Assembly: GCA_964350735.1 (NCBI GenBank)
Contig: CAYGKO010000003.1
Span: forward strand, 118,452-166,061
DNA length: 47,610 nt
Source: an uncultured Candidatus Saccharibacteria bacterium
Lineage (GTDB): Bacteria; Patescibacteriota; Minisyncoccia; Phycocordibacterales; UBA918
Direction: 5' to 3'
Shown here: in pieces, positions 6,720 through 23,295 of the stretch
Layout: each line of letters starts with the position of its first letter
Position numbering within the stretch: position 1 is the stretch's first letter
Notes under the pieces: generated by a model
Told to the model about the DNA's origin: nothing
The model's database searches: none
What the model saw: the letters and a program-made list of their open reading frames with translations, nothing else
Translations under genes and position numbers: made by a program

Positions 6720-6753
6720 AAAATATATAGTGAGAACTATAGCATAACGAGAA

Positions 6754-6784
6754 GTGCGGGCGGAGGCTTCGCCTCCGCCCGCAC
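6754..6784. terminator. GC-rich perfect hairpin between sat-cysC and the ligase gene
   Basis: GTGCGGGCGGAGGC-TTC-GCCTCCGCCCGCAC, a 14-bp stem with only a weak U-tail. Confidence 0.6.
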
Positions 6785-6810
6785 CACACAAAACCTTATT
6801 TGGTCAAATA

Positions 6811-8542: not shown

Positions 8543-9757
8543 ATGATGACTCTAATAAGAAAATACTACGGATTTTTTACCCAAGGAATTGGATGGATAT
8601 TCAGTTCTCAACTTATAGTTAGCGCGGTTGGTTTTATTTTTACAATTGTCATCACTAATGCCTTATCTGTTACTGAATACGGTATATATAAGTATGTAAT
8701 AGCAATAGCTTCACTATTAATCATATTGACAGCATCCGGCTTGATCTCAGCCATGACACGTGTCGCAAGCACAGGCAACGGAGGTGAGATACGCTACCTT
8801 ATATGGGTACGAACGCAGTGGGCGCTATTGGCCTGCTTAGCTGGACTTGCCTTGGCTGGATACTATGCCCTGAATGATAACTTTCAACTCACTATCTTGA
8901 TGTTAATTATTGCCATTGGCATGCCGATCAGCGAAATCCTACGAATGTACCAACCAATACTTCAAGGTAGACGAGCGTACAAACTACTGAGTATATTTGA
9001 CACATATGGACATGTTTCTCACTATACTGTTGTTGCTGTAACAGCCTTAAGTGGAGCAAACTTAACCTGGGTCGTCGCTAGTTATTTTATCTCTTACGTT
9101 GTCGCATATAGCTGGCCTTTTTTATATGCCTATAAAAAATTTACGACCACAATGATTCCGGCCGCGCAAGCCCGCATGTTTGGTATCCACATGAGTATTG
9201 CAAACTCAATCGCGGTCGCCTCTACCCACATTGATAAACTTCTTGTCTTCACAAATATTGGAGCGGCTGAAGCAGCAATCTATGCTGTTGCAATTGCTCC
9301 AGTTGAAATATTACGTAGCTTCCAAAAAAGTATTACCACCTTCATTCATCCTCGGGTGGCCCAATATAAAAAAATTACTTTCAGAGAGCACCTCATCAAC
9401 CACATTCTTCCCGGCCTTTCCATTTCTATAGTAATAGCAGGAGCATATATAATATCCGCATTAGTCCTCCTTCCTTTATTTTTTCCTAAATATCCAGAAG
9501 CTGTAGTACTTTCACAGCTATATGCAATATCTATACTAGGCATTACAATGTTTCCAAATACAGTACTGGAAGCCCGTCTAGCTACTCGGGAACTTTATTA
9601 TCATAAGATCAGTGCCAGTTTTATTAGAGTAGCACTAATAGTGGCCGGACTGCATTTTTATGGAATAACCGGAATTATAGTGGCTCAAGTTATTGCTCGT
9701 TTAATTACTTTTATGTCAGCGCTTATTTTTGTTTATTTAAATCTGAAAAAAAGCTAA
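8543..9757 (+). CDS. Wzx-type oligosaccharide flippase
   Basis: About 12 TM segments, with L(S)..EYGIY near the N-terminus and IDKLLV..IG..AAIY in the second half; sits in a glycan locus. Confidence 0.8.
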   Translation: MMTLIRKYYGFFTQGIGWIFSSQLIVSAVGFIFTIVITNALSVTEYGIYKYVIAIASLLIILTASGLISAMTRVASTGNGGEIRYLIWVRTQWALLACLAGLALAGYYALNDNFQLTILMLIIAIGMPISEILRMYQPILQGRRAYKLLSIFDTYGHVSHYTVVAVTALSGANLTWVVASYFISYVVAYSWPFLYAYKKFTTTMIPAAQARMFGIHMSIANSIAVASTHIDKLLVFTNIGAAEAAIYAVAIAPVEILRSFQKSITTFIHPRVAQYKKITFREHLINHILPGLSISIVIAGAYIISALVLLPLFFPKYPEAVVLSQLYAISILGITMFPNTVLEARLATRELYYHKISASFIRVALIVAGLHFYGITGIIVAQVIARLITFMSALIFVYLNLKKS

Positions 9758-12553: not shown

Positions 12554-13168
12554 TTATTTTTCCAGGAAATAATAAAAACCACCTACTTGCACTTTTGGTT
12601 TTTTATCAATCCATTGGTCAAATTTTCTGGCTATCGCAATGAGCAGATCTGATCTCCCCAAGGGCGTTAATCGTACAATCATCTCAATACGGTCTCGAAC
12701 GTGCACATAGTCAAAGCGAGAAAAAGGTTTTGCCAAATGCTCGAGTGTGTCTTTTGTGAAGCGCCAATAGTCTTCATAATATCCTTCGTGAGCATGATAA
12801 TAGTATAGAAATGGGACGTAAATGAGTAGTCGTCCACCAGGCTTCAGCACCCGATGCATTTCTTCCATCGCTCGGACCGGATCTTTTACGTGCTCTAAAA
12901 CAGCTAAACAAATAATGGCATCGACACTATTATCAGTTAGCGGAATCGCGTGTATATCACCCACGATATCAGGCCCGTAATCAGGCACTGGATCCATGAC
13001 AGTATAATCAACTTTTTCTATGTATTCTTTTAGCCACGCACGAGAGCTGTCATACTTACTTCCAGTCTCCTTACGAGCCCGCAACCCTTCTCCAATATCA
13101 AGGACTGATTTAGAATTATCAAATAAATCGATACATTTTTCTTCGAAGAATTTATCCCAAACATTCAT
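12554..13168 (-). CDS. Class I SAM-dependent methyltransferase
   Basis: Motifs VLDIGEG, GDIHAIPL..NSVDAI, LEHV, RVLKPGG and DYWRFT. Confidence 0.88.
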   Translation of the reverse strand: MNVWDKFFEEKCIDLFDNSKSVLDIGEGLRARKETGSKYDSSRAWLKEYIEKVDYTVMDPVPDYGPDIVGDIHAIPLTDNSVDAIICLAVLEHVKDPVRAMEEMHRVLKPGGRLLIYVPFLYYYHAHEGYYEDYWRFTKDTLEHLAKPFSRFDYVHVRDRIEMIVRLTPLGRSDLLIAIARKFDQWIDKKPKVQVGGFYYFLEK

Positions 13169-13170
13169 AA

Positions 13171-14955
13171 TTATGATTTCAGCTTAAACGTGATTGAACA
13201 CTCTGTTATCTTTTTAAAAGTAATGGCCTTTTTCCCGTGCGTATAGATACCATTTGATGTAATGGTAACATCCTTGGTCCATTCTGGAAGAAAATACCTA
13301 ACTACACCTTGTGTTTGGTCAGAGCGAAACACTTCGCTGACTTCAATAGAATCAGGTAAACATTTATAATTTCTATTCACACTAACACCTGCCATAGACG
13401 TTCCACTTTTTTCAGAGACCCCACCATTATAGGCATACGCATTGTCGACATGCTGCTTTATTGAACTTTCGCAAAAATATGCCGATGAGTAGACATGATG
13501 AAGACTGAAGGCATGACGCAACAATATTAAAAATCTATACAAACTTGAATATAAATAACCACCACGTATCTCAATTAAAATATAAAATAATAATCGCTTG
13601 AAATCATTTTTTGATATATCTACTGGAGAAGTTCCAATACTTTTTATTTTTTTTATACTAAAATTTAACGGTATACTTGCAGCTAATTCTGTGATGACAA
13701 TTTTATTTTTATAATTCTCATCATTCTTTCCAAAATAAACTACCGAGCCACCCCCAATTCTTGGACCCCAAAGCGGGTTCTGAGGCTTCTTGGCGCCGCG
13801 GATTATCAAACCATACGAATCACGAGTAACATTTAAAATATCGGCATTGGAAAAGAGATTTATACCCTCTGGTACTTCGGGACTGATATCTTCTGGAAGA
13901 AGTTTCAACTCAGCACTGATTCGAGTTAGCCAAACACAATGTGAATTCCAAAAATATGGACACTGGAAATTTTCTGGGCCGCCAAGATGATCTCTGATAC
14001 CTCCTTGTTTTAACACTAAATGCTGATTTAAAATCTCTAATGCTTTTAGCGCATATCTTGCATAGCGTTTATCCTTGGTGTAAGTATAAAACTTTAAGAA
14101 GGCGTAAATATCGTATGAATTGCTTGCTATTTCATAGTCTGAAATAAAATACCAACGTTTTGTTTCAAGTTGAATATTTTTAATTCCATCTTTTTGGTAA
14201 AAAGCCGTCAGAAAATCAACCGCTGGTTTCAGCCGCGCAATCAAATTCTCACACATAAGATCACTGCGCTCTGCTGCATGCCAAAGAAAAGCAATATGTC
14301 GTGAGTGATAATAGTTAGTAGTATCTGCAATGGCTGGATCAAGTCCATGTTTTTTGTAGTCGGTCACGTATGGAATACTTCCGTCAGATTGAATATCATT
14401 GAGACTCATTTCAATACATTTTGATATAGCTGCTTTCCACCCCTCTTGGGGATTCAGCGCATACCCTGATGCCAAACCAGTAGCACCCCACAAACGCTGA
14501 TTGGTGTGTACTTTTTCAAGAACTGTCCTAGTCAAGTAGGTTTCACAATTCTTAGTCAAAACATCATGAAGCAGCGCTTGTTCTTTATCTAAAAATTCAT
14601 CAGCGTGCTTCTCTAGCATTAGTGCCAACATGTCACTTACTGCCCCGCTGTCAATAATATGATTAGACATATTCCATCGTTCGCTACCGTCCGATGTAAA
14701 AAAATATTCTCCATTATATGACTGGAGTAACTGAGGCATCCGTAAGGCCCGAGCTTTAGCACGCTCTAGATATTTTCTCTCTCCTGTCTGCGTATAAAGA
14801 TATTGATCTATCCCAATCGAATACGCTGTCTTTCCAGTATGTTCAACTCTATGTTTTGGGCAGTAATTTTTCCCTTGCACATCAGTTCCAGTGTCAAAAA
14901 AATTAGAGACGGACGCCAATATTGCATCTAATTGAGCTACGTGAACGCTACTCAT
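13171..14955 (-). CDS. Uncharacterised protein, probable (alpha/alpha)-toroid carbohydrate-active fold
   Basis: 594 aa. Helical N-terminal repeats (YLYTQTGERKYLERA, FYTYTKDKRYARYA, QSDGSIPY) are followed by a beta-rich C-terminus. The fold call is inference. Confidence 0.5.
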   Translation of the reverse strand: MSSVHVAQLDAILASVSNFFDTGTDVQGKNYCPKHRVEHTGKTAYSIGIDQYLYTQTGERKYLERAKARALRMPQLLQSYNGEYFFTSDGSERWNMSNHIIDSGAVSDMLALMLEKHADEFLDKEQALLHDVLTKNCETYLTRTVLEKVHTNQRLWGATGLASGYALNPQEGWKAAISKCIEMSLNDIQSDGSIPYVTDYKKHGLDPAIADTTNYYHSRHIAFLWHAAERSDLMCENLIARLKPAVDFLTAFYQKDGIKNIQLETKRWYFISDYEIASNSYDIYAFLKFYTYTKDKRYARYALKALEILNQHLVLKQGGIRDHLGGPENFQCPYFWNSHCVWLTRISAELKLLPEDISPEVPEGINLFSNADILNVTRDSYGLIIRGAKKPQNPLWGPRIGGGSVVYFGKNDENYKNKIVITELAASIPLNFSIKKIKSIGTSPVDISKNDFKRLLFYILIEIRGGYLYSSLYRFLILLRHAFSLHHVYSSAYFCESSIKQHVDNAYAYNGGVSEKSGTSMAGVSVNRNYKCLPDSIEVSEVFRSDQTQGVVRYFLPEWTKDVTITSNGIYTHGKKAITFKKITECSITFKLKS

Positions 14956-16082
14956 ATTGTTAAAAAGTTACAAATTGACTGAGCTCGGTTCTTCCAAGTG
15001 TACTTAGTAACCACTACTTGAGCTTGGTCTGCTTTCAGTTGTGACTGAGTACTACCTTGTAAGCACTGAACAATCGCTGACTTAAAGCTTTCTGGATTAT
15101 CAGGCTCTGCAAACGTTGCAGTTGATTCATCCAGCACCGATCGAATGCTCGGAATATCAGAAGCTACTACTGGTACTCCTGATGCCATATAGGTAAACAC
15201 CTTTAGAGGTGAAGTATATTTTGAAGACAGATCGCTTGTTGCAGTGTTGGGAATAACCAAGACATCAGCTGCTTTCTGTAACTGAGGCAAGTCTCTGTAG
15301 GCGGTAAAGCCAAGGAAAGTTACCCAAGGGTAAGTCGCTTTATATAATTTTACCTGTGCCGGTGAACCGCCACAGACAAACACTTCAAAATTATCTGTAC
15401 CTTCAGCCGCTAAACAAAGCGTATCGACCCCTTTCCATTTTTCTAGTCCACCAAAATACATCACCACTGGTTTTTCGGTCTTGATACCAAGCCTATCTCG
15501 CGCTTCTGCTTTAGTGCCGGGAGCATCAATAAAGGACTCATCGATACCATCGTGAGCCACCAGTATCTGACTGTCAGGAATCCCTCGCTCACTATAGGCT
15601 GCTTTAATACCTTCAGAAATGACTACAAACGGGACGCCATGCCGCGCCAAGCTACGCACCGCTTTTGAATATTTAGCCTCATGTGATTCGTATACCAGCT
15701 TTTCATACCCAAGGAAGAAACTCAGAAACCAGAGCACCCATTCATCGCGACTATAGATAACATCTGCATTTTTGGTTTCAATACTTCGTACTGCCTTATG
15801 GGTAAAAACTAATCGTTGCACTGTTAGAGCGGGCACCTTAAGAAATGATGGCAATGAGTCTCCCCAAGCAGCCATATCTGGTACCGAGATACGGTGTGTG
15901 GAAAATAAAAATTTTGCGCCATAGTACTGTTCTGGGGCATCAGAGATATTAGTCTTACGATCAGTTACAAATAAATTCACCTCATGACCGAGAGACGCTA
16001 AAGCATTACAATTTTGCACAATTTGGGTACTGTGCGCTCTATTGCTGGGGAATCGACTGTTACTTAGATACGCAATCTTCAT
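14952..16082 (-). CDS. Glycosyltransferase family 4
   Basis: Motifs MKIAY, YFGGLEKWKGV, ADVLVIP and TSPLKVFTYMASGVPVVASD. Confidence 0.92.
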   Translation of the reverse strand: MKIAYLSNSRFPSNRAHSTQIVQNCNALASLGHEVNLFVTDRKTNISDAPEQYYGAKFLFSTHRISVPDMAAWGDSLPSFLKVPALTVQRLVFTHKAVRSIETKNADVIYSRDEWVLWFLSFFLGYEKLVYESHEAKYSKAVRSLARHGVPFVVISEGIKAAYSERGIPDSQILVAHDGIDESFIDAPGTKAEARDRLGIKTEKPVVMYFGGLEKWKGVDTLCLAAEGTDNFEVFVCGGSPAQVKLYKATYPWVTFLGFTAYRDLPQLQKAADVLVIPNTATSDLSSKYTSPLKVFTYMASGVPVVASDIPSIRSVLDESTATFAEPDNPESFKSAIVQCLQGSTQSQLKADQAQVVVTKYTWKNRAQSICNFLTI

Positions 16083-16084
16083 GA

Positions 16085-16936
16085 TTATTTTTTAGCCACG
16101 ACATCGTGGTGAGTTGGAAAGAGATACTCCATACTAGTTGGAAGAAGTTTCCGAATGAGGTGATTGAGAGGGTTTGAGAAATACACTCGATAGCCTCGAT
16201 TTATAAAACTCGGCAGGAACAAGATTCGTTTCGGGATGATGGTAAAACCAAATGATCGAATATTCACTTCCCCATATTCACTGAAAAGCTTACTAACCTC
16301 AGATCGAGAAAAATAACGTACCGGGCCATTGCGATACTCATCAGCAAATAACTTCATAAACCACAAATATAATGCCACCTGGTAGCCCATCAAAGAATGG
16401 AGGCTTGGGAATGACGAATACACAAACACTTTACCGCCCGGCTTTAATACTCTAAAAATCTCACTAATTGACCGCTTAGTGACTGATTTGTGATTATGTA
16501 AAAAGACTGCCGAGACAACCACCGTATCGACCGAGTTATCCGCTAATGGGAGATCATCAATCTGACCGTACACAAAATGCATTGGTGTGTTTACACTTAT
16601 TGATGTTTTTCGATCACGCGCGTAGCGCAGCATCGACAACGAGCTATCGACTCCAATATAGCCTTCAAAATCACGTCGCGGGAGCAGCTGTTCAGCAATC
16701 CGTCCATACCCGCAACCAACATCAAGTACAATGCCGTCATTTGCATCTACTGCAAGTTCGTCAATTTGTGGCATCCCCTTCTCTATAGCATGTGCTTCAC
16801 TTTCAGCTGATGTGGCAGCATCAAGCAAATCGGACTGTGACAAAGTGTCCCAGACAGTTGAATCAGCCTGATCTGGCGGTACCATGAGGCCTTCTGCTAC
16901 TTTATATCCAGGTCGAATGAGTGAAGAAATTTCCAT
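16085..16936 (-). CDS. Class I SAM-dependent methyltransferase
   Basis: Motifs VLDVGCGYG, GVDSSLSML, LPLADNSVD and RVLKPGG. Confidence 0.92.
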   Translation of the reverse strand: MEISSLIRPGYKVAEGLMVPPDQADSTVWDTLSQSDLLDAATSAESEAHAIEKGMPQIDELAVDANDGIVLDVGCGYGRIAEQLLPRRDFEGYIGVDSSLSMLRYARDRKTSISVNTPMHFVYGQIDDLPLADNSVDTVVVSAVFLHNHKSVTKRSISEIFRVLKPGGKVFVYSSFPSLHSLMGYQVALYLWFMKLFADEYRNGPVRYFSRSEVSKLFSEYGEVNIRSFGFTIIPKRILFLPSFINRGYRVYFSNPLNHLIRKLLPTSMEYLFPTHHDVVAKK

Positions 16937-16938: not shown

Positions 16939-17739
16939 CTATTTTTTAAACCAGCCGGTAATACGAGCAAATATATCATACCCGCCCTCAATCCAGCGAC
17001 AGACTGACATAATTGGCTGGTTTTTCTCTACTAGCGTACGCGGAATTTCACTATCTGCGCGGCTCAAAAAACCACTAATTGCACTGTATATATGGGTGAA
17101 ATTATGCTCCTGCACTAAAGTAGTGGTGGCAGCTGAAAAATCAATCCTGGTACCAAATGGGTACGCAAAGTGGCTGATTTTGGTACCGAGCTGTTGTTCT
17201 AGCACTGCTTTGTTCTTTGTAACCTCAGTTTGAGCAGCTGCCAGACTAACCTTACCTAAAGAGACATGGGAGTGGGTATGGGCGCCGATCACCTGCCCTG
17301 ATTGATGTAGGGTATGCAGTCCTGCAGTGGTCAAGAGTTTTTTGGGAGACAGCAGCAACTGCTTGCGGGCAAATGTCGTGGCCTCCTCTTCATCATTGGC
17401 CACCTCAAGAATTTGAGTACTGACAAAAAAGATTCCTCGTAAGTGATGTTGCTCTAAAACGGGTAGCACAGTAGTGACCCAAGAATCATACCCGTCATCA
17501 AAGGTCAGGAGGAGATTGATTTTTTCATTATTAAAATTACCCGATACAAAATCAGCTGGTTGCAAAATATGATACCGATCACTGAGAGTGGCAATGAGTG
17601 ACTCAAACCAAGCCAGGTCGGCCACATCATGAAAAGCGACTACTCGCACCAACGGCTTTTTGGCTTGACGTTGGTGCAGCGCCACAAGACCGAAGCGGCA
17701 ACAGGCCCATATGAAACCATCTCGAATCAGGTGTTTCAT
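16939..17739 (-). CDS. Polysaccharide deacetylase (CE4/NodB family)
   Basis: Motifs LTFDDGY, GAHTHSH and FAYPFG. ATG at 17739 overlaps the sulfotransferase stop (ATGA). Confidence 0.9.
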   Translation of the reverse strand: MKHLIRDGFIWACCRFGLVALHQRQAKKPLVRVVAFHDVADLAWFESLIATLSDRYHILQPADFVSGNFNNEKINLLLTFDDGYDSWVTTVLPVLEQHHLRGIFFVSTQILEVANDEEEATTFARKQLLLSPKKLLTTAGLHTLHQSGQVIGAHTHSHVSLGKVSLAAAQTEVTKNKAVLEQQLGTKISHFAYPFGTRIDFSAATTTLVQEHNFTHIYSAISGFLSRADSEIPRTLVEKNQPIMSVCRWIEGGYDIFARITGWFKK

Positions 17740-18569
17740 AGCTTCCATTCAGTTAGCATGTCCCGGCCTAGATACTCGCCAAGCTGGCGCACGTCATCAA
17801 TAAACACGCTGGCAACAAAACTAGTATCTGGTTTGGCTTTTTCAGTCGGTGACGCGTGATTAGTATTTTTAGAACGAATGTAATCTGGTAGACCTGAACG
17901 CTTCACTTTATGTACCAGCGCATCCAGGCCATGGGCACGCAGCCACTCTGCTAATCTGTGCATCCCTTTATCAATTCGATAGTTCTTGGGCGCGCGAGCA
18001 ATGTTGATACGACTTTGTAGTGACGGCGGAACAAATGAATCGTCCACTCCAATATGTCTATAGATACTACTCATAAAGGCCTGTGGGTCGCGCGCAATGT
18101 CTTCATACACCAGCACCAGGAGCTGCTCCTGAGAGAAATATTGTAGATATCGATCAATCTGATTCATGTATTTCCCCTGCTCAACACAGCTAACTTCAGA
18201 TTCAGTATACGCTGCAAAAGTCACATCTTCGGTAATTTCTCCAGCCTTGATGGCATTGCGATACTGTGAATAAGCGCGCTCGACTGGATTGCGCACTACT
18301 AAGAGTAACTGCGTGTCTGGATATAAAGTATGGATACGTGCCGCTGCCACATCACTGTATGCATACGAGGTTGAAAATTCACCTAACTTCAAATTCTTAT
18401 CACAGTTACGCCAGTGATTTTCATACCACTGCCTCCCCTCACTAAAGCGCGGGCGACTAAAAAAGTGAATCTCCTTCACCGGAGCACAGACTTCAGGATG
18501 CTCATACAAGCAGGCGTAAATCCATGAGGTCCCTGACTTTTGCGCGCCAATGCCAATAAAATTAATCAT
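17736..18569 (-). CDS. PAPS-dependent sulfotransferase
   Basis: 5'-PSB loop GAQKSGTSW, KEIHFF and 3'-PB motif RNPVERAYS. Start placed at ATG 18569. Confidence 0.92.
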   Translation of the reverse strand: MINFIGIGAQKSGTSWIYACLYEHPEVCAPVKEIHFFSRPRFSEGRQWYENHWRNCDKNLKLGEFSTSYAYSDVAAARIHTLYPDTQLLLVVRNPVERAYSQYRNAIKAGEITEDVTFAAYTESEVSCVEQGKYMNQIDRYLQYFSQEQLLVLVYEDIARDPQAFMSSIYRHIGVDDSFVPPSLQSRINIARAPKNYRIDKGMHRLAEWLRAHGLDALVHKVKRSGLPDYIRSKNTNHASPTEKAKPDTSFVASVFIDDVRQLGEYLGRDMLTEWKL

Positions 18570-19602
18570 GTGTGAAGATACGTCCATATAAAGTAGCGAG
18601 AGAATGATTCTGCTCGACTGACGCTCGTAATGCATTGATCATCGCATATTTCTCCGCTTCAGACCATGACAAAATTTTTTGCGCTTGAGCAGCGAAGCCT
18701 CTGATATCTCCCTTGTCTTCGAACAATCTGTGTGGCAGCAACATAGCTTCAAAAGCTTTATTTCCAGTAATTGGAATACATCCACACGCCATTGCTTCTA
18801 AGATCACTTTATCTAAACCATCATGCTCAGACGGATTCATGAAAATAACCGCCGACTGGTATAACTTCAACAACTCTGACTGATTAACAGGTGGTCTGAT
18901 CTCAATCGTGTCTGATAAATCATTTGCGTTGATGAGGTCAATGATTTCTTGATGGTAGATTTTATCAGTCGCTTCCCCTACCAGCACGACTCGTAATGAC
19001 TGCTCCCTCTGCTGCAGCAGCGCTATTGTTTTAATCACCTGTTCAATCTTCTTTGTTCGTGAAAACCGTCCTGCGAACAAGATGTCGACATTTCTTTCTT
19101 CCGAAACGGGTAAACTAAATAGGTCGAGATCGATTGCGTGCCCAATCACCAAACGCTTCTGCGATCGAATTGGAAAGCTCGCAGCTGCCGCAGTATAAAC
19201 CCGATCAGTAAAAATTAGAGCTAGCCTTCCCATAGTATTAATCTGCCCATGGGTCTTCCACCAGTAAAACTTTGTTGTATATAGCTTTCGCACTACAAAG
19301 AATGGAGCGGCGAGGAGATTATAAATAGCTCCCATGTGAAAAAAAACGTAGTCAACGCGCACGCGAAAAAATACCTGGGCAAAAACACGGTAGAACGTTC
19401 CAAGCTGTGACAACTTACTGGCTCCCCGCTCTTTTCCAAGTGAATATATCCGTACATGGTCGGGCAACTCATACTCGCCTTTCTCTAGACAGATCACGTG
19501 TACTTCGCTGAAATATTTAGAAAATTCGAAGATCCAACTATGAAAAAAACCCAGAATAGGGTGATTCCGATCTACAACTTGAGTACAAATGAGTAATTTC
19601 AT
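18562..19602 (-). CDS. Glycosyltransferase family 4
   Basis: Motifs FAGRFSRTKK and SEHDGLDKVILEAMACG. Confidence 0.9.
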   Translation of the reverse strand: MKLLICTQVVDRNHPILGFFHSWIFEFSKYFSEVHVICLEKGEYELPDHVRIYSLGKERGASKLSQLGTFYRVFAQVFFRVRVDYVFFHMGAIYNLLAAPFFVVRKLYTTKFYWWKTHGQINTMGRLALIFTDRVYTAAAASFPIRSQKRLVIGHAIDLDLFSLPVSEERNVDILFAGRFSRTKKIEQVIKTIALLQQREQSLRVVLVGEATDKIYHQEIIDLINANDLSDTIEIRPPVNQSELLKLYQSAVIFMNPSEHDGLDKVILEAMACGCIPITGNKAFEAMLLPHRLFEDKGDIRGFAAQAQKILSWSEAEKYAMINALRASVEQNHSLATLYGRIFTHD

Positions 19603-19606
19603 GAGA

Positions 19607-21025
19607 TTAATTAGCAGCTGCAGTCACTGGCATTTTGAGTGACACTGCCTGTTCCTGAATAGTGTCTTTTTGTTCTTCGGGTAGTAACGCCACTTCGATA
19701 CTATCCCGGAGAGCTTGATAGTAAGCCTCTTTATCTTCATACAAGCGCGTATCTGCAATGGTTTTCGATTGTCGCTTAAATTGAACCCGGAGGGCTTGGC
19801 TGTTAATAAATTTAACCATTTTCTGTGATAAACAATGTGGGTCTCCAGCTGGACACAACAGTGCTGACCTACCATCTTCTAACAAATCCAAACGCAATTC
19901 CGTTTCATACGCGACAATCGGTAGTTGTGCTGCTAAGGCTCTAAGTGTCATTTCATCACTTGTACTAGCAAGACCAGTTTCAATTAGCACATCAGCTGTC
20001 TTGAAATAAGAGGTCAGGTCACTGGATTCTGAAACAAAGACAACGTTTTTTTCAATCCCAAGTAGACTGGCTTTTTCGGTAAAGAGCTTCTTGGCTGGAC
20101 CACTGCCAACTACCACCAAACCAATTCGGTTCTGATATAAAATATTTCGCAACGAAACAAACACATCATGTAGATGGCTGTCTGCAGTCAGATCTCCAAA
20201 CGTCAGAATAATTAATTTGTATTCTGGATATCGTTCGTGTAGATCAAATGCAGGGACGCCATTTTTAAATGCATCAAAATTATAATACTGGGGTAGCACC
20301 CTTTGATCTGCCGTTTGTATCGACACCTTTTGTTTTAAACTCATTTCAATCTCTGAAGAACCGTAGCGCACACTAGGAGCCTGATGTACTACGTTTTTTA
20401 TAGCTCGCTTCTCCCAAAAAGAAATCTTTGCAGGTTGTAGATCAGTTCCAAAGACAGCATTATTTATCTGCACCTGCCATACTCTGCCAAATCTTTTACC
20501 TACTGCCATCGCTGCTACACCAGAAACGAGCGGGTCCATTGCCACGATAATATCTGGTCGCAAACTATCATTAAACAGCAAATCTTCTTCGGCTCGACTA
20601 AGTGCTGCCTCACCTGCCACAGTATGGTCTACCGCCTGGACGCTGTATGTCCACATATTTGTTGATATCCGCTCAGTCTCTTCTGTGGCCGAGCGACTAG
20701 AAAGAAGTACCATTACATGCACTTCATCAAACCAATATGATTGTTCGAGGTAGTATTTTTCGGCAATACTGCCCTTTTCTAACACAGCGGTATTTGTCGT
20801 TATAAAAAGTACTCGTGATTTTGCTCGTCCGCTATCAAACGTCAAAATAGACGGAGCTCGCTTTTCAGCTTCGACTGATACTTGATTAGCATTATTTTCA
20901 GCAACACCTGGATCTGCAACGTGTAGCACATGATCAAGTACTGCATTTGCCACCTCAGACTGATCTGCCCAAGTATCACTTAATGTACTCTCAATGTGTG
21001 TAGTGAACTCTTTTTGTTTTGCCAT
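19607..21025 (-). CDS. GT4-like (GT-B fold) protein with a degenerate donor-binding motif
   Basis: RPDIIVA, LVVVGSGP, LGIEKNVVF and ADVLI motifs are present, but the E-x7-E motif is absent. Confidence 0.7.
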   Translation of the reverse strand: MAKQKEFTTHIESTLSDTWADQSEVANAVLDHVLHVADPGVAENNANQVSVEAEKRAPSILTFDSGRAKSRVLFITTNTAVLEKGSIAEKYYLEQSYWFDEVHVMVLLSSRSATEETERISTNMWTYSVQAVDHTVAGEAALSRAEEDLLFNDSLRPDIIVAMDPLVSGVAAMAVGKRFGRVWQVQINNAVFGTDLQPAKISFWEKRAIKNVVHQAPSVRYGSSEIEMSLKQKVSIQTADQRVLPQYYNFDAFKNGVPAFDLHERYPEYKLIILTFGDLTADSHLHDVFVSLRNILYQNRIGLVVVGSGPAKKLFTEKASLLGIEKNVVFVSESSDLTSYFKTADVLIETGLASTSDEMTLRALAAQLPIVAYETELRLDLLEDGRSALLCPAGDPHCLSQKMVKFINSQALRVQFKRQSKTIADTRLYEDKEAYYQALRDSIEVALLPEEQKDTIQEQAVSLKMPVTAAAN

Positions 21026-21032
21026 TCACATT

Positions 21033-21038
21033 AGTATA
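21033..21038 (-). promoter_or_regulatory. -10 box, putative leaderless start
   Basis: TATACT followed by 7 nt and then ATG 21025. Confidence 0.6.
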
Positions 21039-21044
21039 GCTGAC

Positions 21045-22175
21045 TTATGAACCAATCAAGAACGACTCTTTCCACGCATGTGCGTATAAAGACTGTGCTT
21101 GATGAATTTCGCCTGCTTTCGCATACCCCGCTCGCTGAAAACTGATACGTTGATCTCTGATAGAGACTGCCCGGAGTGACTCCTGTAGCTCATCGCCTGA
21201 CTCACTCTGAAGAACTACCCCATGCTGTCCTGAAAGTACAAGCTCTCCCACACAACCAACATCAGTTGTTACCAATGCCAAACCAGCTGCCATAGCTTCC
21301 AAAAGTACTAATGCATACCCTTCATGGGCGGAGTTAAGTACAAACACATCATGCGTAGCCATCAATGCAGGAACATCGTTAGTCCATGGTAAAAAAGTAA
21401 CGCGCTCTTCTATACCTTTATCTACCACCAAACCCCTTAGTTCTGACTCTTGGTTTCCTTCACCTAACAATGTCAGCTGATAACCTGGGCTTTCCTGGCA
21501 CAAAACTGCAAAGGCAACAATAAGTTCTGGCAATCTTTTTTCAGGAGAGAACCGACCAGCGTATAAAAAACGGACTATGGCGGGCGCTTCGTCATACGCA
21601 CGGTTTTTGCCCACCGTCAGAAACTGCTCTAGTTTTACCTGTACCGGAAGCACGGCAATTTTATCTCCTGTGACACCAAGCGGGATCAGTGATTTTTTAA
21701 TCCGATTTGACACCACCCGCACCCCTCTTGCGCGTCGCAACACAAACAAGCCAAAAACATATCGCAAGCGGTTAAGAGGTGAACTGACCAGCCAATTATC
21801 ATTACCAAAATTATCACCATGAATCTGTATATGATGGACCGCATTCTTTGCTTTAGCCGCAAAATATCCAACAATACTAGTCTCGAACGGATCTTGGCTG
21901 CTCACCACCCAGGTAGTATCAGAATTTTCTTTTAAGATTTTCTTGGTCAACCTATACCCATCAATCAACATCCCCAAACTCGAAGCGCTGTGTGTTCCGT
22001 ACACAGAAAGGGCCCCGGAATGATATTCGCGCGGACGACCTTCAGCCTCCCGCGTGAACACCACCATGATATGACGATCTACTTCTTTAGAAAATTCTTC
22101 CATACGTTTTTGTTCCCGACTATCTGTATCGAGGACCCGTTTGGCATAGCTCACGGCAAGTAAATTAACTGACAT
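21045..22175 (-). CDS. Glycosyltransferase family 4
   Basis: Motifs YAGRFSPEK and SAHEGYALVLLEAMAAG. Confidence 0.92.
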   Translation of the reverse strand: MSVNLLAVSYAKRVLDTDSREQKRMEEFSKEVDRHIMVVFTREAEGRPREYHSGALSVYGTHSASSLGMLIDGYRLTKKILKENSDTTWVVSSQDPFETSIVGYFAAKAKNAVHHIQIHGDNFGNDNWLVSSPLNRLRYVFGLFVLRRARGVRVVSNRIKKSLIPLGVTGDKIAVLPVQVKLEQFLTVGKNRAYDEAPAIVRFLYAGRFSPEKRLPELIVAFAVLCQESPGYQLTLLGEGNQESELRGLVVDKGIEERVTFLPWTNDVPALMATHDVFVLNSAHEGYALVLLEAMAAGLALVTTDVGCVGELVLSGQHGVVLQSESGDELQESLRAVSIRDQRISFQRAGYAKAGEIHQAQSLYAHAWKESFLIGS

Positions 22176-23295
22176 ATTTCTTGAGTAATGTTGCTAATCG
22201 ATCAACTGACTTCTCTTTAGAAAAATCTTGCACGCGCAAACGCGCGTTCTGGATCAACTTTTCTCGTTGTCGCTGGTCTGTATAAATATGAATAATACGT
22301 TCTGCAAATATCTCAACATCATCTACTGCAACAAGCGCTCCAGAGAGACCGTCTTGTACTAACTCAGGATTGCCACCCACCTCAGTAGTGACAATTGGTA
22401 CACCCAGGTCCATTGCTTCGAGTAGTGTGTGAGAAAGTCCTTCATAAGAAGTATTAAGCACAAACACATCTGCTGCGGTCATACTAGCCCCCAGCGCCTC
22501 TTTACCTAACCCCCCAACTAACCGCACCTGGCTGGCCACCCCATGTTCTCTCGCTAATTTATTAATCCTATCTTTCTCGGGGCCATCACCGGCAATCACA
22601 AGTGTCGCTTCTGGAAATTCCTGCTGAACCGCAACTAATACTTCTACCAACTTCTCCATTCCTTTCCACGGCACCAAGCGCCCAGCAGAAAAAAGAGTTG
22701 GGCTAGTGTATTCTAGCTGACTGCGCAATTCAGTTTTTGTTCCAGTTACTGCTAGAGGAAACAAAGCGCTATACACTACCTGGATCCGATCTATTTTTAC
22801 CTTAGACCACGTAGCAACAATTGACTGCAGATACTCACTCGGCACAACAACTAAGGCAGCTCGCGCTACTACATACGACTGGAGCCAGGAAAACATTTTC
22901 ACCCGCAGGCCATATCCACGACCTTGATTTTTGGTATATCCATCAAGGGTGTCCTGCACGCCAAAACGTTGTACTCCCTGCTCCCACGCATAGTCTCCAC
23001 CAAGGCGAACCAGAAGTGGAATACGTCGCAGTCGAGACACGAGCAAAGCCGGCCAGCCCACACTCATTGGATCCAGTGCAAACACTGCGTCAGCGTCTTT
23101 AGTGGCTCGGAAAAGTATCTGCGTATACCGCAGATGCCGAAACAACTTAGGGACTGAACGTACAGCACCATACGGCACAACCTCAACCACAAAACCTTTA
23201 GTTGGTAATTCTTTCGCAATCATTGCGGCGTAGGTGGCTGGACCACCAATATCAGGAGGAAATAATCCAGCAGCCATGACGATCTTTTTTTGCAT
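22165..23295 (-). CDS. Glycosyltransferase family 4
   Basis: Motifs FPPDIGGPATY, SAGRLVPWKG and YEGLSHTLLEAMDLG. Confidence 0.93.
   Translation of the reverse strand: MQKKIVMAAGLFPPDIGGPATYAAMIAKELPTKGFVVEVVPYGAVRSVPKLFRHLRYTQILFRATKDADAVFALDPMSVGWPALLVSRLRRIPLLVRLGGDYAWEQGVQRFGVQDTLDGYTKNQGRGYGLRVKMFSWLQSYVVARAALVVVPSEYLQSIVATWSKVKIDRIQVVYSALFPLAVTGTKTELRSQLEYTSPTLFSAGRLVPWKGMEKLVEVLVAVQQEFPEATLVIAGDGPEKDRINKLAREHGVASQVRLVGGLGKEALGASMTAADVFVLNTSYEGLSHTLLEAMDLGVPIVTTEVGGNPELVQDGLSGALVAVDDVEIFAERIIHIYTDQRQREKLIQNARLRVQDFSKEKSVDRLATLLKKYVS

What the first reader, a model, noticed from the sequence alone, without database searches (positions are those of the whole stretch)
16939..18569. Sulfotransferase coupled to a deacetylase: a split NDST-like pair
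Seen: the sulfotransferase stop and deacetylase start overlap (ATGA at 17736-17739), downstream of four GT4-type genes, and both retain their catalytic motifs. Known: animal heparan sulfate NDST de-N-acetylates GlcNAc and then N-sulfates it. The QKSGT, KExHFF and RNPxxRAYS motifs are shared with that sulfotransferase clan, though they also occur in other bacterial enzymes. Inference: a bacterial two-gene route to N-sulfated hexosamine, giving a glycosaminoglycan-like coat.
Basis: partly seen in the sequence, partly recalled or inferred. Interest (0 to 1): 0.82.

Follow-up and report, generated by a model that had tools for sequence, protein, structure and literature searches.

The report
Conserved bacterial sulfotransferase–deacetylase gene pair
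A heparan-sulfate-type sulfotransferase gene and a sugar de-N-acetylase gene overlap by four bases inside a surface-sugar gene cluster of a tiny bacterium, and the pair travels together across several bacterial phyla, so the two enzymes almost certainly work on the same sugar, possibly making an N-sulfated amino sugar that has no known bacterial enzymes.

Summary
A 277-aa PAPS-type sulfotransferase (17736-18569, minus strand) and a 266-aa CE4 deacetylase (16939-17739) overlap in ATGA. They lie downstream of four GT4 genes, and both keep their catalytic motifs.

The pairing is not chance. Of 34 loci from other genomes that encode an ortholog of the sulfotransferase (39-62% identity), 21 have the deacetylase as the next gene. 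Six more have one GT4 gene between them. Only 3 of 45 loci with distant sulfotransferases hold any CE4, and those hits are weak and far away.

The conserved unit is a triad: GT4, sulfotransferase and deacetylase. It occurs in Patescibacteria and in records labelled Vicinamibacterales, Gammaproteobacteria and Actinomycetes. The window's locus also encodes a fused PAPS synthase, a Wzx flippase and a Wzy-like protein. The genome shows no PAPS reductase and no second sulfotransferase.

Sequential de-N-acetylation and N-sulfation is my leading reading (about 0.4), but it is not shown. The sulfotransferase is equally close to O-sulfating 3-OSTs and to the NDST N-sulfotransferase domain. The deacetylase is PgaB/IcaB-like, not NDST-like. 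No clean deacetylase-sulfotransferase fusion was found.

"Split NDST" holds as a functional analogy, not as family membership. A glycosaminoglycan-like backbone is unsupported.

The parts
17736..18569 (-). PAPS-dependent sulfotransferase, 277 aa, heparan-sulfate NST/3-OST clade
   Evidence: PF00685 at 69.9 bits and PF13469 at 65 bits. PDB by sequence: 3rnl 4e-22, 3-OST-3A 4e-16, NDST1 ST domain 3e-12. AlphaFold model has pLDDT 87.8. Foldseek top hits are 3rnl, 3-OST-3 and NDST1. It is the only PF00685/PF13469 hit in the genome.
16939..17739 (-). CE4 polysaccharide de-N-acetylase-type enzyme, 266 aa (269 aa if started at 17748), PgaB/IcaB/PplD-like
   Evidence: PF01522 at 73.6 bits. Best NCBIfam matches are HfsH and PgaB, both below their cut-offs. 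Model has pLDDT 95.7. Foldseek top hits are PplD 1.3e-13, PgaB and IcaB. Invariant across 23 orthologs: R32, H37, D81, D82, H154, H158, R234.
17736..17739 (-). ATGA overlap: the ST stop TGA and the deacetylase start ATG share 4 nt
   Evidence: Read. The same 4-nt overlap occurs in 9 of 20 directly adjacent ortholog pairs. All 20 junctions lie between -28 and +9 nt.
18528..18542 (-). QKSGT, the loop that binds the 5'-phosphosulfate of PAPS (ST residues 10-14)
   Evidence: Read. Q10, T14 and S15 are invariant and K11 is at least 90% conserved in 24 sequences.
18459..18476 (-). KEIHFF; E33 is the presumed catalytic base (ST residues 32-37)
   Evidence: K32, E33, H35, F36 and F37 are invariant. 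The motif aligns with AEPHFF of 3-OST-3A. A Glu base is described for HS3ST1 and NST1 in passages of PMC11625862.
18267..18293 (-). RNPVERAYS, the motif that binds the 3'-phosphate of PAPS (ST residues 93-101)
   Evidence: R93, P95, R98, A99 and S101 are invariant.
17491..17505 (-). TFDDG, CE4 motif 1 (catalytic base Asp and metal-binding Asp; residues 79-83)
   Evidence: F80, D81, D82 and G83 are invariant in 23 sequences.
17266..17280 (-). HTHSH, CE4 motif 2 (two metal-binding His, H154 and H158)
   Evidence: H154 and H158 are invariant.
18562..19602 (-). GT4 glycosyltransferase 'GT4_d', third member of the conserved triad; its stop overlaps the ST start by 8 nt
   Evidence: PF00534 at 67.6 bits. 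A homolog flanks the ST in nearly all ortholog loci, in the orders GT4-ST-CE4, ST-GT4-CE4 or ST-CE4-GT4. ST orthologs fused to GT4 domains in either order: P0144, P0149.
19607..23295 (-). Three further GT4 glycosyltransferases (19607-21025, 21045-22175, 22165-23295)
   Evidence: PF00534. The order GT4a-b-c-d-ST-CE4 is kept in Patescibacteria loci.
6811..8481 (-). Fused ATP sulfurylase / APS kinase (PAPS synthase), the sulfate-donor supply
   Evidence: PF01747, PF01583 and PF14306. NF004040 at 792.8 bits against a cut-off of 669. No PAPS-reductase-family hit in the genome.
8543..9757 (+). Wzx/MOP-type flippase
   Evidence: PF01943 at 58.3 bits. A weak MOP flippase match in NCBIfam.
4509..6791 (-). 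Wzy_C (O-antigen ligase/polymerase-like) membrane protein with C-terminal TPR repeats
   Evidence: PF04932 at 65.6 bits plus TPR families.
14952..16936 (-). Methyltransferase (16085-16936) and GT4 (14952-16082) directly downstream of the deacetylase
   Evidence: PF08241 and PF00534. The methyltransferase follows the deacetylase only in the same-genus genome, L002 = L037.

Best explanation
The pair is the tailoring core of a conserved three-gene module: a GT4 glycosyltransferase, a sulfotransferase and a CE4 deacetylase. The module sits inside a Wzx/Wzy-type surface-glycan locus that makes its own PAPS.

Proposed steps:
1. At the cytoplasmic face of the membrane, the GT4 adds an N-acetylhexosamine to a lipid-linked oligosaccharide.
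2. The CE4 enzyme, which is membrane-associated through its N-terminal segment, removes the N-acetyl group.
3. The sulfotransferase, made from the same transcript in step with the deacetylase, transfers sulfate from PAPS to that residue. I think the freed amine is the most likely acceptor, which would give an N-sulfo-hexosamine.
4. The unit is then flipped by Wzx and polymerised or ligated by the Wzy_C-TPR protein.

Shown:
- gene identities and catalytic motifs;
- the overlaps between the genes;
- conservation of the triad across phyla;
- PAPS synthase in the locus;
- absence of export signals on both enzymes.

Inferred:
- that the three enzymes act on one residue;
- the sugar identity;
- the lipid carrier;
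- the order of steps;
- the N-linkage of the sulfate.

My odds:
- a sulfated glycan is made: about 0.85;
- the deacetylase and the ST are functionally dependent on each other: about 0.7;
- the sulfate goes on the nitrogen: about 0.4.
For: 1. Conservation from the ST side.
- Of 34 genome loci with ST orthologs (39-62% identity), 21 have the CE4 ortholog as the next gene.
- Six more have the order ST-GT4-CE4.
- Two have a CE4 elsewhere in the locus.
- Three of the 5 loci without one end within 335 nt of the ST.

2. Controls.
- With a profile of the CE4 family, 3 of 45 loci with distant STs (at most 29% identity) have any hit. Those hits score 48-57 bits, lie on the opposite strand and are at least 3.6 kb away.
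- 0 of 20 loci with distant STs from relatives of the same genus or order have a hit, though these loci have only 1.5-kb flanks.

3. Conservation from the CE4 side.
- In a metagenome scan, the two closest CE4 relatives (40% and 37% identity) have the ST directly upstream.
- Two more loci show ST-GT4-CE4.
- That is 4 of 80 loci. The other 76 hold more distant CE4s.

4. The triad survives changes of gene order and of phylum. Record titles include Paceibacterota, Kaiserbacteria, Magasanikbacteria, Vicinamibacterales, Gammaproteobacteria, Actinomycetes and UASB270.

5. Coupling of the genes. Junctions lie between -28 and +9 nt in 20 of 20 adjacent pairs, and 9 of the 20 have the ATGA overlap.

6. 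Rosetta-stone fusions of the ST orthogroup.
- GT4-ST (P0144) and ST-GT4 (P0149).
- A Wzx flippase with a C-terminal ST (P0279), which places the ST at the cytoplasmic membrane face.
- One 1150-aa protein with a borderline DUF2334/CE4-like region, a methyltransferase, a GT4 and the ST (P0153).

7. Distant CE4 relatives are fused to GT4 and GT2 domains.

8. The CE4 is of the de-N-acetylase kind. Its best folds are PplD, PgaB and IcaB, with TM-scores of 0.66-0.71 normalised to the query. Its metal and base residues are invariant.

9. Compartment.
- The ST begins at its PAPS loop, with no leader.
- The CE4 has no signal peptide.
- The hydrophobic N-terminal segment of the Patescibacteria CE4s is followed by more positive charge than precedes it.
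- That segment is missing in four non-Patescibacteria members.

10. Sulfate supply. The locus encodes a bifunctional PAPS synthase. The 95.7%-complete genome shows no PAPS-reductase-family hit and no other PF00685/PF13469 gene.

11. For the N-linkage specifically.
- The ST lies in the only carbohydrate-ST clade known to contain an N-sulfotransferase.
- An obligate partner that frees an amine is most simply explained if the amine is the acceptor.
- Nitrous-acid assays report N-linked sulfate in the exopolymers of Pontiella, and the same assay was applied to granular-sludge polymers. Both papers say the bacterial enzymes or pathways are unknown (passages of PMC7356697; passages of PMC10483923).
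Against: - No assay or structure fixes the acceptor atom.
- The ST profile is slightly closer to O-sulfating 3-OST-3A (83.6 bits) and 3-OST-5 (77.1) than to the NDST1 N-sulfotransferase domain (74.1). Its closest solved relative, 3rnl, carries only the generic name 'Sulfotransferase'.
- The bacterial carbohydrate sulfotransferases named in the review passages I read (NodH, Stf0, KpsS) act on hydroxyl groups (PMC11625862).
- No clean CE4-ST fusion was found: 0 hits, 0 of 20, and 0 clear cases among the 150 best. The N-terminal region of P0153 matches the CE4 family only weakly (hhalign probability 28%).
- Free sugar amines are often left unsubstituted in bacterial glycans, as in PNAG and holdfast (recalled).
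- The module is rare. No further ortholog of either gene appeared in an even sample of 400 genomes of the phylum. Only 1 close ortholog appeared among 100 relatives.
- PAPS synthase and ST hits overlap only partly among relatives. Four genomes have both, out of 21 with an ST hit and 9 with a PAPS synthase hit.
Confidence: 0.4

Rival explanations
1. O-sulfation that depends on deacetylation. The CE4 makes a residue with a free amine. The ST recognises that residue and sulfates one of its hydroxyl groups, or a hydroxyl of a neighbouring sugar. The product is a zwitterionic amino-sugar sulfate, not a sulfamate.
For: - This reading explains the conserved triad and the coupling equally well.
- The ST is marginally nearer the 3-O-sulfotransferases, and it shares their E-x-H arrangement in KEIHFF/AEPHFF.
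- The characterised bacterial carbohydrate STs named in the review are O-sulfotransferases (passages of PMC11625862).
- From recall, not checked here: mammalian 3-OST-3 accepts N-unsubstituted glucosamine. That would be a precedent within this clade for an O-sulfotransferase that needs a free amine.
Against: - It needs a separate reason for a free amine to be obligatory for an O-sulfotransferase.
- It leaves the reported N-linked sulfate of microbial exopolymers without enzymes.
Confidence: 0.3
2. Independent tailoring. The ST and the deacetylase modify different residues of the same repeat unit. They are kept together only because the whole cassette is inherited and transferred as a block, as NodB and NodH act at opposite ends of Nod factors.
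For: - In Patescibacteria the whole block is syntenic: ATP-grasp, PHP-like gene, second CE4-like gene, GT4a-d, ST, CE4. Adjacency there could partly reflect shared descent.
- NodH sulfation is independent of N-modification (passage of PMC11625862).
Against: - Outside Patescibacteria the surrounding genes differ and the gene order changes, yet GT4, ST and CE4 stay together (L041, L043, L045, L047, L048, L050, L052, L054, L108, L110).
- Distant STs almost never have a CE4 neighbour (3 of 45, all weak).
- Junctions of -28 to +9 nt are maintained.
Confidence: 0.2
3. The acceptor is not a polysaccharide repeat unit. It is instead a glycolipid, a small glycoside or a protein-linked glycan, as in the GT4 + deacetylase + amine-modifying logic of mycothiol and bacillithiol synthesis. 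This rival can be combined with either N- or O-sulfation.
For: - GT4_d has weak matches to MshA, BshA and a GlcNAc-phosphatidylglycerol synthase model, all far below their cut-offs.
- No initiating phosphoglycosyl transferase was recognised among the window's ORFs.
Against: - The locus holds five GT4 genes between 14952 and 23295 and a sixth at 29598-30809, plus a Wzx flippase and a Wzy_C protein.
- An ST ortholog is fused to a Wzx flippase (P0279).
Confidence: 0.1

Closest known systems
[quoted passage not shown]
   Same: - It combines a metal-dependent sugar de-N-acetylase of the (beta/alpha)7-barrel type, with an Asp/His/His site, and a PAPS sulfotransferase of the NST/3-OST clade (passages of PMC10864358).
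- The ST here matches the NDST1 sulfotransferase domain at 1.2e-19 with the profile, and by fold at 1.7e-10.
   Different: - Here there are two separate genes and no NDST N-terminal domain.
- The deacetylase is PgaB/IcaB/PplD-like CE4. The NDST domain is described as Agd3-like, and Agd3 is placed in CE18.
- The enzymes are cytoplasmic, not Golgi-lumenal.
- No heparosan-type synthase or clear uronic-acid supply was seen.
- N-sulfation is unproven.
Heparan sulfate 3-O-sulfotransferases (3-OST-1, -3, -5)
   Same: - They are the best-characterised sequence and fold relatives of the ST (83.6, 77.1 and 68.7 bits; Foldseek 5e-11).
- They share the P-loop, the Glu-x-His motif and the 3'-phosphate motif.
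   Different: - They are animal Golgi enzymes that act on hydroxyl groups of a finished polymer.
- They have no deacetylase partner.
PgaB / IcaB / BpsB / PplD / HfsH de-N-acetylases (CE4)
   Same: - They are the best fold matches, with Foldseek E-values of 1e-13 to 1e-10 and TM-scores of 0.62-0.71 normalised to the query.
- HfsH and PgaB are the best NCBIfam matches.
- The metal and base residues are conserved.
   Different: - PgaB, IcaB, BpsB and PplD work outside the cytoplasm (recalled). This family has no signal peptide and sits beside a PAPS-dependent enzyme.
- All NCBIfam scores are far below the equivalog cut-offs (44.6 against 400 for HfsH), so this is a separate subfamily.
Nod factor tailoring (NodB deacetylase + NodH sulfotransferase) and bacterial sulfated exopolysaccharide clusters (synechan xss; Actinoplanes wps-1 with WpsH)
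   Same: - These are bacterial glycan pathways that use PAPS sulfotransferases.
- WpsH is predicted to carry a heparan-sulfate-sulfotransferase domain in a Wzx/Wzy cluster (passages of PMC13390465).
- The synechan cluster was seen only as a search listing and abstract (PMC8205485).
   Different: - NodB and NodH act independently, and NodH is an O-6 sulfotransferase of another Pfam family (passage of PMC11625862).
- In the passages I read, no deacetylase is listed among the named wps-1 products. The one polysaccharide deacetylase mentioned lies in a different cluster, wps-3.
GT4 + deacetylase + amine-modifying enzyme pathways (MshA/MshB/MshC, BshA/BshB/BshC)
   Same: The logic is the same: a GT4 installs GlcNAc, a deacetylase frees the amine, and a third enzyme re-derivatises it (recalled). 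GT4_d has weak matches to MshA and BshA.
   Different: - Those deacetylases belong to the LmbE family, not CE4 (recalled).
- The third step there is an amide ligation, not sulfation.
- The products are small thiols.

Membership tests
PAPS-dependent sulfotransferase, Pfam PF00685 (heparan sulfate NST/3-OST clade) | Profile score above the curated cut-off | tested here: met
   PF00685 at 69.9 bits against 22; PF13469 at 65 bits against 27.
PAPS-dependent sulfotransferase, Pfam PF00685 (heparan sulfate NST/3-OST clade) | 5'-phosphosulfate-binding loop with Lys, and 3'-phosphate-binding Arg...Ser motif | tested here: met
   GAQKSGTS at residues 8-15 and RNPVERAYS at residues 93-101. Q10, T14, S15, R93 and S101 are invariant and K11 is at least 90% conserved in 24 sequences.
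PAPS-dependent sulfotransferase, Pfam PF00685 (heparan sulfate NST/3-OST clade) | Catalytic base Glu on the loop after the first strand-helix unit | tested here: met
   E33 in KEIHFF is invariant and aligns with the Glu of AEPHFF in 3-OST-3A. A Glu base is described for HS3ST1 and NST1 in passages of PMC11625862.
PAPS-dependent sulfotransferase, Pfam PF00685 (heparan sulfate NST/3-OST clade) | Sulfotransferase fold closest to NST/3-OST structures | tested here: met
   Model pLDDT 87.8. Foldseek: 3rnl 1.1e-14, 3-OST-3 4.8e-11, NDST1 1.7e-10.
PAPS-dependent sulfotransferase, Pfam PF00685 (heparan sulfate NST/3-OST clade) | Sulfotransfer from PAPS to a carbohydrate acceptor | not testable with these tools
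   Only indirect support: a PAPS synthase in the locus.
[quoted passage not shown] | Deacetylase and sulfotransferase domains in one polypeptide, with an N-terminal accessory domain | tested here: not met
   Two genes here. No longer ST relatives. 0 of 20 longer CE4 relatives carry an ST domain. Of the 150 best ST-profile hits, 6 are longer than 450 aa: three GT4 fusions (P0144, P0148, P0149), one Wzx fusion, one multi-ST protein, and one with a borderline DUF2334/CE4-like region.
[quoted passage not shown] | Deacetylase domain of the Agd3-like (CE18-related) type | tested here: not met
   The listed Foldseek matches of the CE4 model are PplD, PgaB, IcaB, BpsB and Bacillus CE4s. No NDST1 or Agd3 entry is among them. 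The NDST type is taken from passages of PMC10864358 and section 2.1 of PMC13353177.
[quoted passage not shown] | Asp/His/His metal site plus Asp base in the deacetylase | tested here: met
   D81, D82, H154 and H158 are invariant. The acid His is inferred to be H37 by analogy with PgaB-type enzymes (recalled, not tested).
[quoted passage not shown] | Sulfate is transferred to the amine freed by the deacetylase (GlcNS product) | not testable with these tools
   The ST profile scores 74.1 bits against NST and 83.6 bits against 3-OST-3A, which does not discriminate.
[quoted passage not shown] | Substrate is a heparosan-type GlcA-GlcNAc polymer | tested here: inconclusive
   Only GT4-type transferases were found in the locus. 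The genome's sole PF03721 hit is partial and marginal: 26.5 bits in a 275-aa frame.
Carbohydrate esterase family 4 (PF01522), PgaB/IcaB-type de-N-acetylases | Profile score above the cut-off and a (beta/alpha)7 barrel like PgaB/IcaB | tested here: met
   PF01522 at 73.6 bits against 23.1. Model pLDDT 95.7. Matches to PplD, PgaB and IcaB have E-values of 1e-13 to 2.5e-12 and TM-scores of 0.66-0.71 normalised to the query.
Carbohydrate esterase family 4 (PF01522), PgaB/IcaB-type de-N-acetylases | Motifs TFDD and H-x3-H conserved | tested here: met
Carbohydrate esterase family 4 (PF01522), PgaB/IcaB-type de-N-acetylases | Membership in a named equivalog (PgaB, IcaB, HfsH, NodB, PdaA...) | tested here: not met
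   All 11 NCBIfam matches are far below their cut-offs. The best are HfsH at 44.6 against 400 and PgaB at 43.5 against 321.9.
Carbohydrate esterase family 4 (PF01522), PgaB/IcaB-type de-N-acetylases | Extracytoplasmic location, as for PgaB and IcaB | tested here: not met
   No signal-peptide-like N-terminus. The hydrophobic segment has a mean Kyte-Doolittle value over 15 residues of 1.0-2.2 in Patescibacteria members, and 0.3-0.7 in L045, L047, L048 and L052. Net charge after the segment is mostly +4 to +6, against +1 to +3 before it. The topology itself is inferred.

The most novel reading that the evidence does not exclude
This triad is a natural prokaryotic counterpart of NDST: a GT4, a cytoplasmic CE4 de-N-acetylase and a heparan-sulfate-type sulfotransferase. 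It would install an N-sulfated hexosamine on lipid-linked glycans before export, and it moves between phyla as a cassette. If so, it supplies the missing enzymes for the N-linked sulfate reported in microbial exopolymers. It would also offer small, bacterial enzymes for the N-deacetylation/N-sulfation step that heparin bioengineering currently has to build artificially.
Probability: 0.4. Interest if true: 0.85.

Novelty: new variant of a known kind. Interest (0 to 1): 0.62.

Why it matters
- Sulfated bacterial glycans are considered rare. One 2026 paper still states that bacterial sulfated polysaccharides are produced exclusively by cyanobacteria (passage of PMC13390465).
- Nitrous-acid assays report N-linked sulfate in Pontiella exopolymers, and the same assay was applied to wastewater-granule polymers. 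Both papers say the bacterial enzymes or pathways are unknown (passages of PMC7356697; passages of PMC10483923).
- This module is a concrete, testable candidate. It consists of three small soluble or peripheral proteins with a defined genomic signature. The wider ST profile matches 3,814 cluster representatives at E <= 1e-30, a set much broader than the orthologs that carry the module.
[quoted passage not shown] A native bacterial deacetylase/sulfotransferase pair would therefore have practical value.
- The locus also shows that a bacterium with a 1-Mb genome spends genes on PAPS synthesis, apparently only to sulfate its surface.
- If the sulfate proves to be O-linked, the finding shrinks to a new, tightly coupled tailoring cassette for sulfated amino-sugar glycans.

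Tried and rejected
- **Complex prediction of ST with CE4, using alignments A1 and A2:** the verdict was 'no answer' (score 0.00, mark 0.32). I do not use it for or against binding.
- **Expression:** no RNA holder was listed. One DNA holder was found, a biofilm metagenome that may be the source.
- **Word-based search for longer, fused ST forms:** none scored. This is weak evidence.
- **Longer CE4 forms:** 20 hits, with fusions to GT4, GT2, methyltransferase and PF01636 domains, none to an ST.
- **Exhaustive ST-profile search:** it gave GT4, Wzx and multi-domain fusions but no clean CE4-ST fusion. The N-terminus of P0153 matches the CE4 alignment at only 28% hhalign probability. It does not match the window's second CE4-like protein.
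- **Phylum-wide co-occurrence:** an even sample of 400 genomes held no further ortholog of either gene. No 2x2 table could be made.
- **PAPS synthase versus ST among 101 relatives:** the overlap is only partial (G000, G008, G038, G097). I do not use it as support.
- **Metagenome scan from the CE4 side:** Only 4 of 80 loci were informative.
- **Donor sugar of GT4_d:** PDB and NCBIfam matches were too weak to say.
- **Deciding N- versus O-sulfation from sequence or fold:** not possible.
- **Literature:**
  - Searches (0 papers) found no paper describing a bacterial sulfotransferase-deacetylase pair or a native bacterial N-sulfotransferase for glycans.
  - This covers only the held open-access library.
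  - Supplements are closed, so Table S4 of PMC7356697 (the Pontiella sulfotransferase genes) could not be compared with this family.
  - bioRxiv 10.64898/2026.10.18.759982 was checked by passages and is not relevant.
- **Rejected reading:** that the longer ORF from 18635 is the true ST start. The orthologs start at the MINF/MIDF position.

Full report
**1. What is in the window**

Genes from 3486 to 24332 run almost without a gap on the minus strand.

The sulfotransferase (ST) is 277 aa and runs 18569->17736.
- It matches PF00685 (69.9 bits, cut-off 22) and PF13469.
- It begins directly at its PAPS loop: MINFIGIGAQKSGTS.
- The longer ORF from 18635 is not the real start, because 23 orthologs begin at the same MI(N/D)F position.

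The deacetylase runs 17739->16939 and is 266 aa. An alternative ATG lies at 17748.
- It matches PF01522, carbohydrate esterase family 4 (CE4; 73.6 bits, cut-off 23.1).

The junctions are tight.
- The plus strand reads tcat at 17736-17739. On the minus strand this is ATGA, so the ST stop and the deacetylase start share four bases.
- The ST start overlaps the stop of the upstream GT4 gene by 8 nt (ATGATTAA at 18562-18569).
- Four GT4-type genes (PF00534) lie upstream at 18562-23295.

- ST: QKSGT (18528-18542), KEIHFF (18459-18476), RNPVERAYS (18267-18293).
- Deacetylase: TFDDG (17491-17505), HTHSH (17266-17280).

**2. The surrounding locus**

The locus holds these recognised genes.

| Coordinates | Strand | Product | Key evidence |
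|---|---|---|---|
| 3486-4505 | - | MurB | PF01565, PF02873 |
| 4509-6791 | - | Wzy_C (O-antigen ligase/polymerase-like) membrane protein with TPR repeats | PF04932 |
| 6811-8481 | - | fused ATP sulfurylase/APS kinase (PAPS synthase) | NF004040, 792.8 bits against a cut-off of 669 |
| 8543-9757 | + | Wzx/MOP flippase | PF01943 |
| 9821-10291 | - | hexapeptide acyltransferase | PF00132 |
| 10306-10971, 12554-13168, 16085-16936 | - | three methyltransferases | PF08241 |
| 10999-12582 | - | GMC oxidoreductase | PF05199 |
| 13171-14955 | - | 594-aa protein with no Pfam family | see noticed in passing |
| 14952-16082 | - | fifth GT4 | PF00534 |
| 23322-24332 | - | YvcK-type UDP-GlcNAc-binding protein | TIGR01826, 256.6 bits against 196 |
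| 24390-25388 | + | second, divergent CE4-like gene | PF01522, 31.1 bits |
| 25385-26179 | - | weak PHP-like gene | PF02811, E 0.003, below cut-off |
| 26176-27381 | - | ATP-grasp gene | PF15632 |

The genome is 1.05 Mb in 7 contigs and 95.7% complete. In that genome:
- the ST is the only PF00685/PF13469 match;
- no PAPS-reductase-family gene was found, whereas the same search found one in 14 of 14 control genomes.

The PAPS synthase therefore has no detected client other than this ST. From this I conclude that the locus makes a sulfated surface glycan by a Wzx/Wzy-type route.

**3. Is the pairing more than chance?**

The ST has many close relatives.
- 471 proteins scored E <= 1e-3. The 120 best, apart from the window's own protein, are 53-62% identical, 271-314 aa long, and none carries a specific name.
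- A profile of 24 of them (A1) finds 3,814 cluster representatives at E <= 1e-30.

A scan of one genome per species returned 80 loci. Thirty-four of them (L023-L056) encode orthologs at 39-62% identity. I mapped all the window's locus proteins onto these loci with tblastn. I then searched them with a profile of the CE4 family.

| Arrangement in the 34 ortholog loci | Loci |
|---|---|
| CE4 ortholog is the next gene after the ST (in L033 it is interrupted by 100 N) | 21 |
| Order ST-GT4-CE4 | 6 |
| CE4 elsewhere in the locus (L053, L055) | 2 |
| No CE4 found | 5 |

Of the five loci without a CE4:
- three (L034, L044, L049) end within 335 nt after the ST;
- L038 has 807 nt with no ORF;
- L056 has about 10 kb without one.

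Controls with the CE4 profile:
- Of 45 loci with distant STs (at most 29% identity), 3 have a hit. These score 48-57 bits, lie on the opposite strand and are at least 3.6 kb away.
- Of 20 loci from same-genus or same-order relatives that carry distant STs, none has a hit, though their flanks are only 1.5 kb.

The test from the other side used a metagenome scan with the CE4 alignment.
- The two closest CE4 relatives (40% and 37% identity) have the ST directly upstream.
- Two more loci have ST-GT4-CE4.
- The other 76 of the 80 loci hold more distant CE4s.

In the 20 directly adjacent pairs with an uninterrupted junction, the distance from ST stop to CE4 start is -28 to +9 nt. Nine of them have the same ATGA overlap.

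**4. The conserved unit is a triad, and it moves between phyla**

A homolog of the GT4 gene just upstream of the ST (GT4_d) accompanies the pair in three different orders:
- GT4-ST-CE4 in the Patescibacteria loci and in L043;
- ST-GT4-CE4 in L041, L047, L048, L050, L052, L054, L108 and L110;
- ST-CE4-GT4 in L045.

Record titles place these loci in:
- Paceibacterota, Kaiserbacteria and Magasanikbacteria;
- records auto-labelled 'Saccharibacteria';
- Vicinamibacterales, Gammaproteobacteria, Actinomycetes and 'UASB270'.

Within the window's own genus the module is rare. Only 1 of 60 genus members searched has a close ortholog (G008, 52% identity). An even sample of 400 genomes of the phylum held none. 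The distribution is patchy and cassette-like.

Domain fusions point the same way. Among the 150 best profile hits, 6 are longer than 450 aa:
- P0144 is GT4-ST.
- P0148 is a partial GT4 followed by the ST.
- P0149 is ST-GT4.
- P0279 is a Wzx flippase with a C-terminal ST.
- P0174 has several ST domains.
- P0153 (1150 aa) has a borderline DUF2334/CE4-like region, a methyltransferase, a GT4 and the ST. Its deacetylase-like part matches the CE4 family only weakly (hhalign probability 28%).

Distant CE4 relatives are fused to GT4 and GT2 domains, and never to an ST in the 20 found.

**5. What kind of enzymes they are**

*The ST.*
- Its closest solved relative is 3rnl, an Alicyclobacillus protein deposited only as 'Sulfotransferase' (118 bits with the profile).
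- Next come 3-OST-3A (83.6), 3-OST-5 (77.1), the NDST1 sulfotransferase domain (74.1) and 3-OST-1 (68.7).
- The AlphaFold model (pLDDT 87.8) gives the same ranking by fold.
- The PAPS-binding residues and the Glu of KEIHFF are invariant. A review describes a Glu base for both HS3ST1 and NST1 (passages of PMC11625862).
- The family thus belongs to the NST/3-OST clade. Sequence and fold do not say whether it sulfates N or O.

*The deacetylase.*
- Its model is very confident (pLDDT 95.7).
- Its best fold matches are PplD, PgaB, IcaB, BpsB and Bacillus BC0361/BA0330 (E-values of 1e-13 to 1e-10).
- By name these are de-N-acetylases of GlcNAc-containing polymers.
- Invariant residues are R32, H37, D81, D82, H154, H158 and R234.
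- I infer that H37, in the FHDV motif, is the catalytic acid, as in the permuted PgaB-type CE4s. That equivalence is recalled, not tested.
- All NCBIfam matches are far below their equivalog cut-offs, so this is a subfamily of its own.

*Compartment.*
- Neither protein has a signal peptide.
- In Patescibacteria members the CE4 has a 15-residue hydrophobic segment. Its mean Kyte-Doolittle value is 1.0-2.2, and in most members more positive charge follows it than precedes it.
- Four non-Patescibacteria members lack the segment.
- I read this as a cytoplasmic catalytic domain held at the membrane. That fits a PAPS-dependent partner and a lipid-linked substrate. The topology is inferred.

**6. Comparison with NDST**

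According to the passages I read of PMC10864358:
- The deacetylase has an Asp/His/His metal site, an Asp base (D319) and a His acid (H529).
- That deacetylase domain is homologous to fungal Agd3.

Section 2.1 of PMC13353177 places Agd3 in CE18. It reports that heparosan-specific deacetylases cluster nearer to it than to CE4 enzymes.

The bacterial pair thus uses the same two enzyme superfamilies and the same chemistry on the deacetylase side. It fails three defining features of NDST membership:
- a single polypeptide;
- an Agd3-like deacetylase;
- the N-terminal domain.

The product is unknown. Nothing supports a heparosan-like or uronic-acid backbone.
- Only GT4-type transferases are present in the locus.
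- The genome's one PF03721 hit is a marginal partial match.

**7. Mechanism and odds**

The most economical reading of an obligate, movable GT4 + de-N-acetylase + sulfotransferase cassette is as follows. The GT4 adds an N-acetylhexosamine, the CE4 frees its amine, and the ST sulfates that residue.

Cytoplasmic deacetylation of a freshly transferred GlcNAc is, in known pathways, often the prelude to re-derivatising the amine. LpxC/LpxD, NodB/NodA, MshB/MshC and BshB/BshC are examples. In others the amine stays free, as with PIG-L, ArnD and HfsH. All these examples are recalled.

| Reading | Odds |
|---|---|
| N-sulfation of the freed amine | about 0.4 |
| O-sulfation that depends on the free amine | about 0.3 |
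| Independent tailoring of different residues | about 0.2 |
| Acceptor is not a polysaccharide (can combine with any of the above) | about 0.1 |

The prior that characterised bacterial carbohydrate STs are O-sulfotransferases counts against N-sulfation. So does the slightly better match to the 3-OSTs. The absence of a clean CE4-ST fusion also counts against it.

In its favour, nitrous-acid assays report N-linked sulfate in Pontiella exopolymers, where 75-80% of the sulfate was N-linked. The same assay was applied to granular-sludge polymers. Both papers say the bacterial enzymes or pathways are unknown (passages of PMC7356697; passages of PMC10483923).

**8. Novelty and limits**

My searches of the held library found no description of a bacterial sulfotransferase-deacetylase pair or of a native bacterial glycan N-sulfotransferase.
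- Supplements were closed, so the Pontiella sulfotransferase list (Table S4 of PMC7356697) could not be compared.
- The enzyme families are known. What is new is the conserved triad and its possible product.
- I therefore file it as a new variant of a known kind, with moderate to high interest that depends on one simple assay.

The complex prediction gave no verdict, and no RNA data were available.

Noticed in passing
window 13171-14955 (-): A 594-aa protein inside the biosynthetic locus has no Pfam family above cut-off. The protein-language-model search puts it near clusters that carry ulvan-lyase N- and C-terminal domains (score 0.96). The only Pfam hint is Alginate_lyase at E 0.011, below cut-off. 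A 43%-identical homolog follows the pair in L042. A lyase- or epimerase-like fold inside a locus for a sulfated glycan is unexplained.
   Followed up: partly
window 24390-27381; also loci L024-L030, L033, L039, L051: A second conserved sub-cassette lies upstream of the GT4 genes in many Patescibacteria loci. It consists of an ATP-grasp enzyme (PF15632), a weak PHP-like protein and a divergently transcribed second CE4-like deacetylase. It could be a second pair in which a deacetylase frees an amine and a partner re-derivatises it, here by forming an amide. That is speculation.
   Followed up: partly
window 6811-8481 (-) and whole genome G000: A 1.05-Mb Patescibacteria-type genome carries a fused ATP sulfurylase/APS kinase. 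No PAPS-reductase-family gene and only one sulfotransferase were detected. PAPS seems to be made only for sulfation. Among 101 relatives, 9 have this PAPS synthase. Three of them (G002, G041, G056) show no match to this ST at E <= 1e-10.
   Followed up: partly
proteins P0279, P0144, P0149, P0153, P0174: Other organisms fuse ST orthologs to other domains. The partners are a Wzx flippase, GT4 domains in both orders, and a chain made of a DUF2334-like region, a methyltransferase and a GT4. One protein has several tandem ST domains.
   Followed up: partly
window 31705-35322 and 45119-46939: Genes that look like type IV secretion or conjugation components lie next to the glycan locus. They are a TrwB/VirD4-like coupling ATPase (33103-35322), a protein with lamin-tail and PKD domains (31705-33099), and a protein with a T4SS-pilin domain (45119-46939).
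   Followed up: no
window 10999-12582 (-), 9821-10291 (-), 10306-10971 (-), 12554-13168 (-): The same locus holds a GMC oxidoreductase with a pyranose-oxidase-like C-terminus, a hexapeptide acyltransferase and two more methyltransferases. Apart from scattered weak methyltransferase matches and a hexapeptide acyltransferase in L025, they are not seen in the ortholog loci. They probably add strain-specific decorations.
   Followed up: no
window 35585-36967 (-): A DUF4015 putative glycosyl hydrolase (259.9 bits) lies close to the glycan locus. Its role is unknown.
   Followed up: no
window 3486-4505, 40090-43515: Peptidoglycan genes flank the glycan locus: MurB, two Mur ligases and a glutamate-racemase-like gene. 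The product could be a wall-linked polymer and not a capsule.
   Followed up: no
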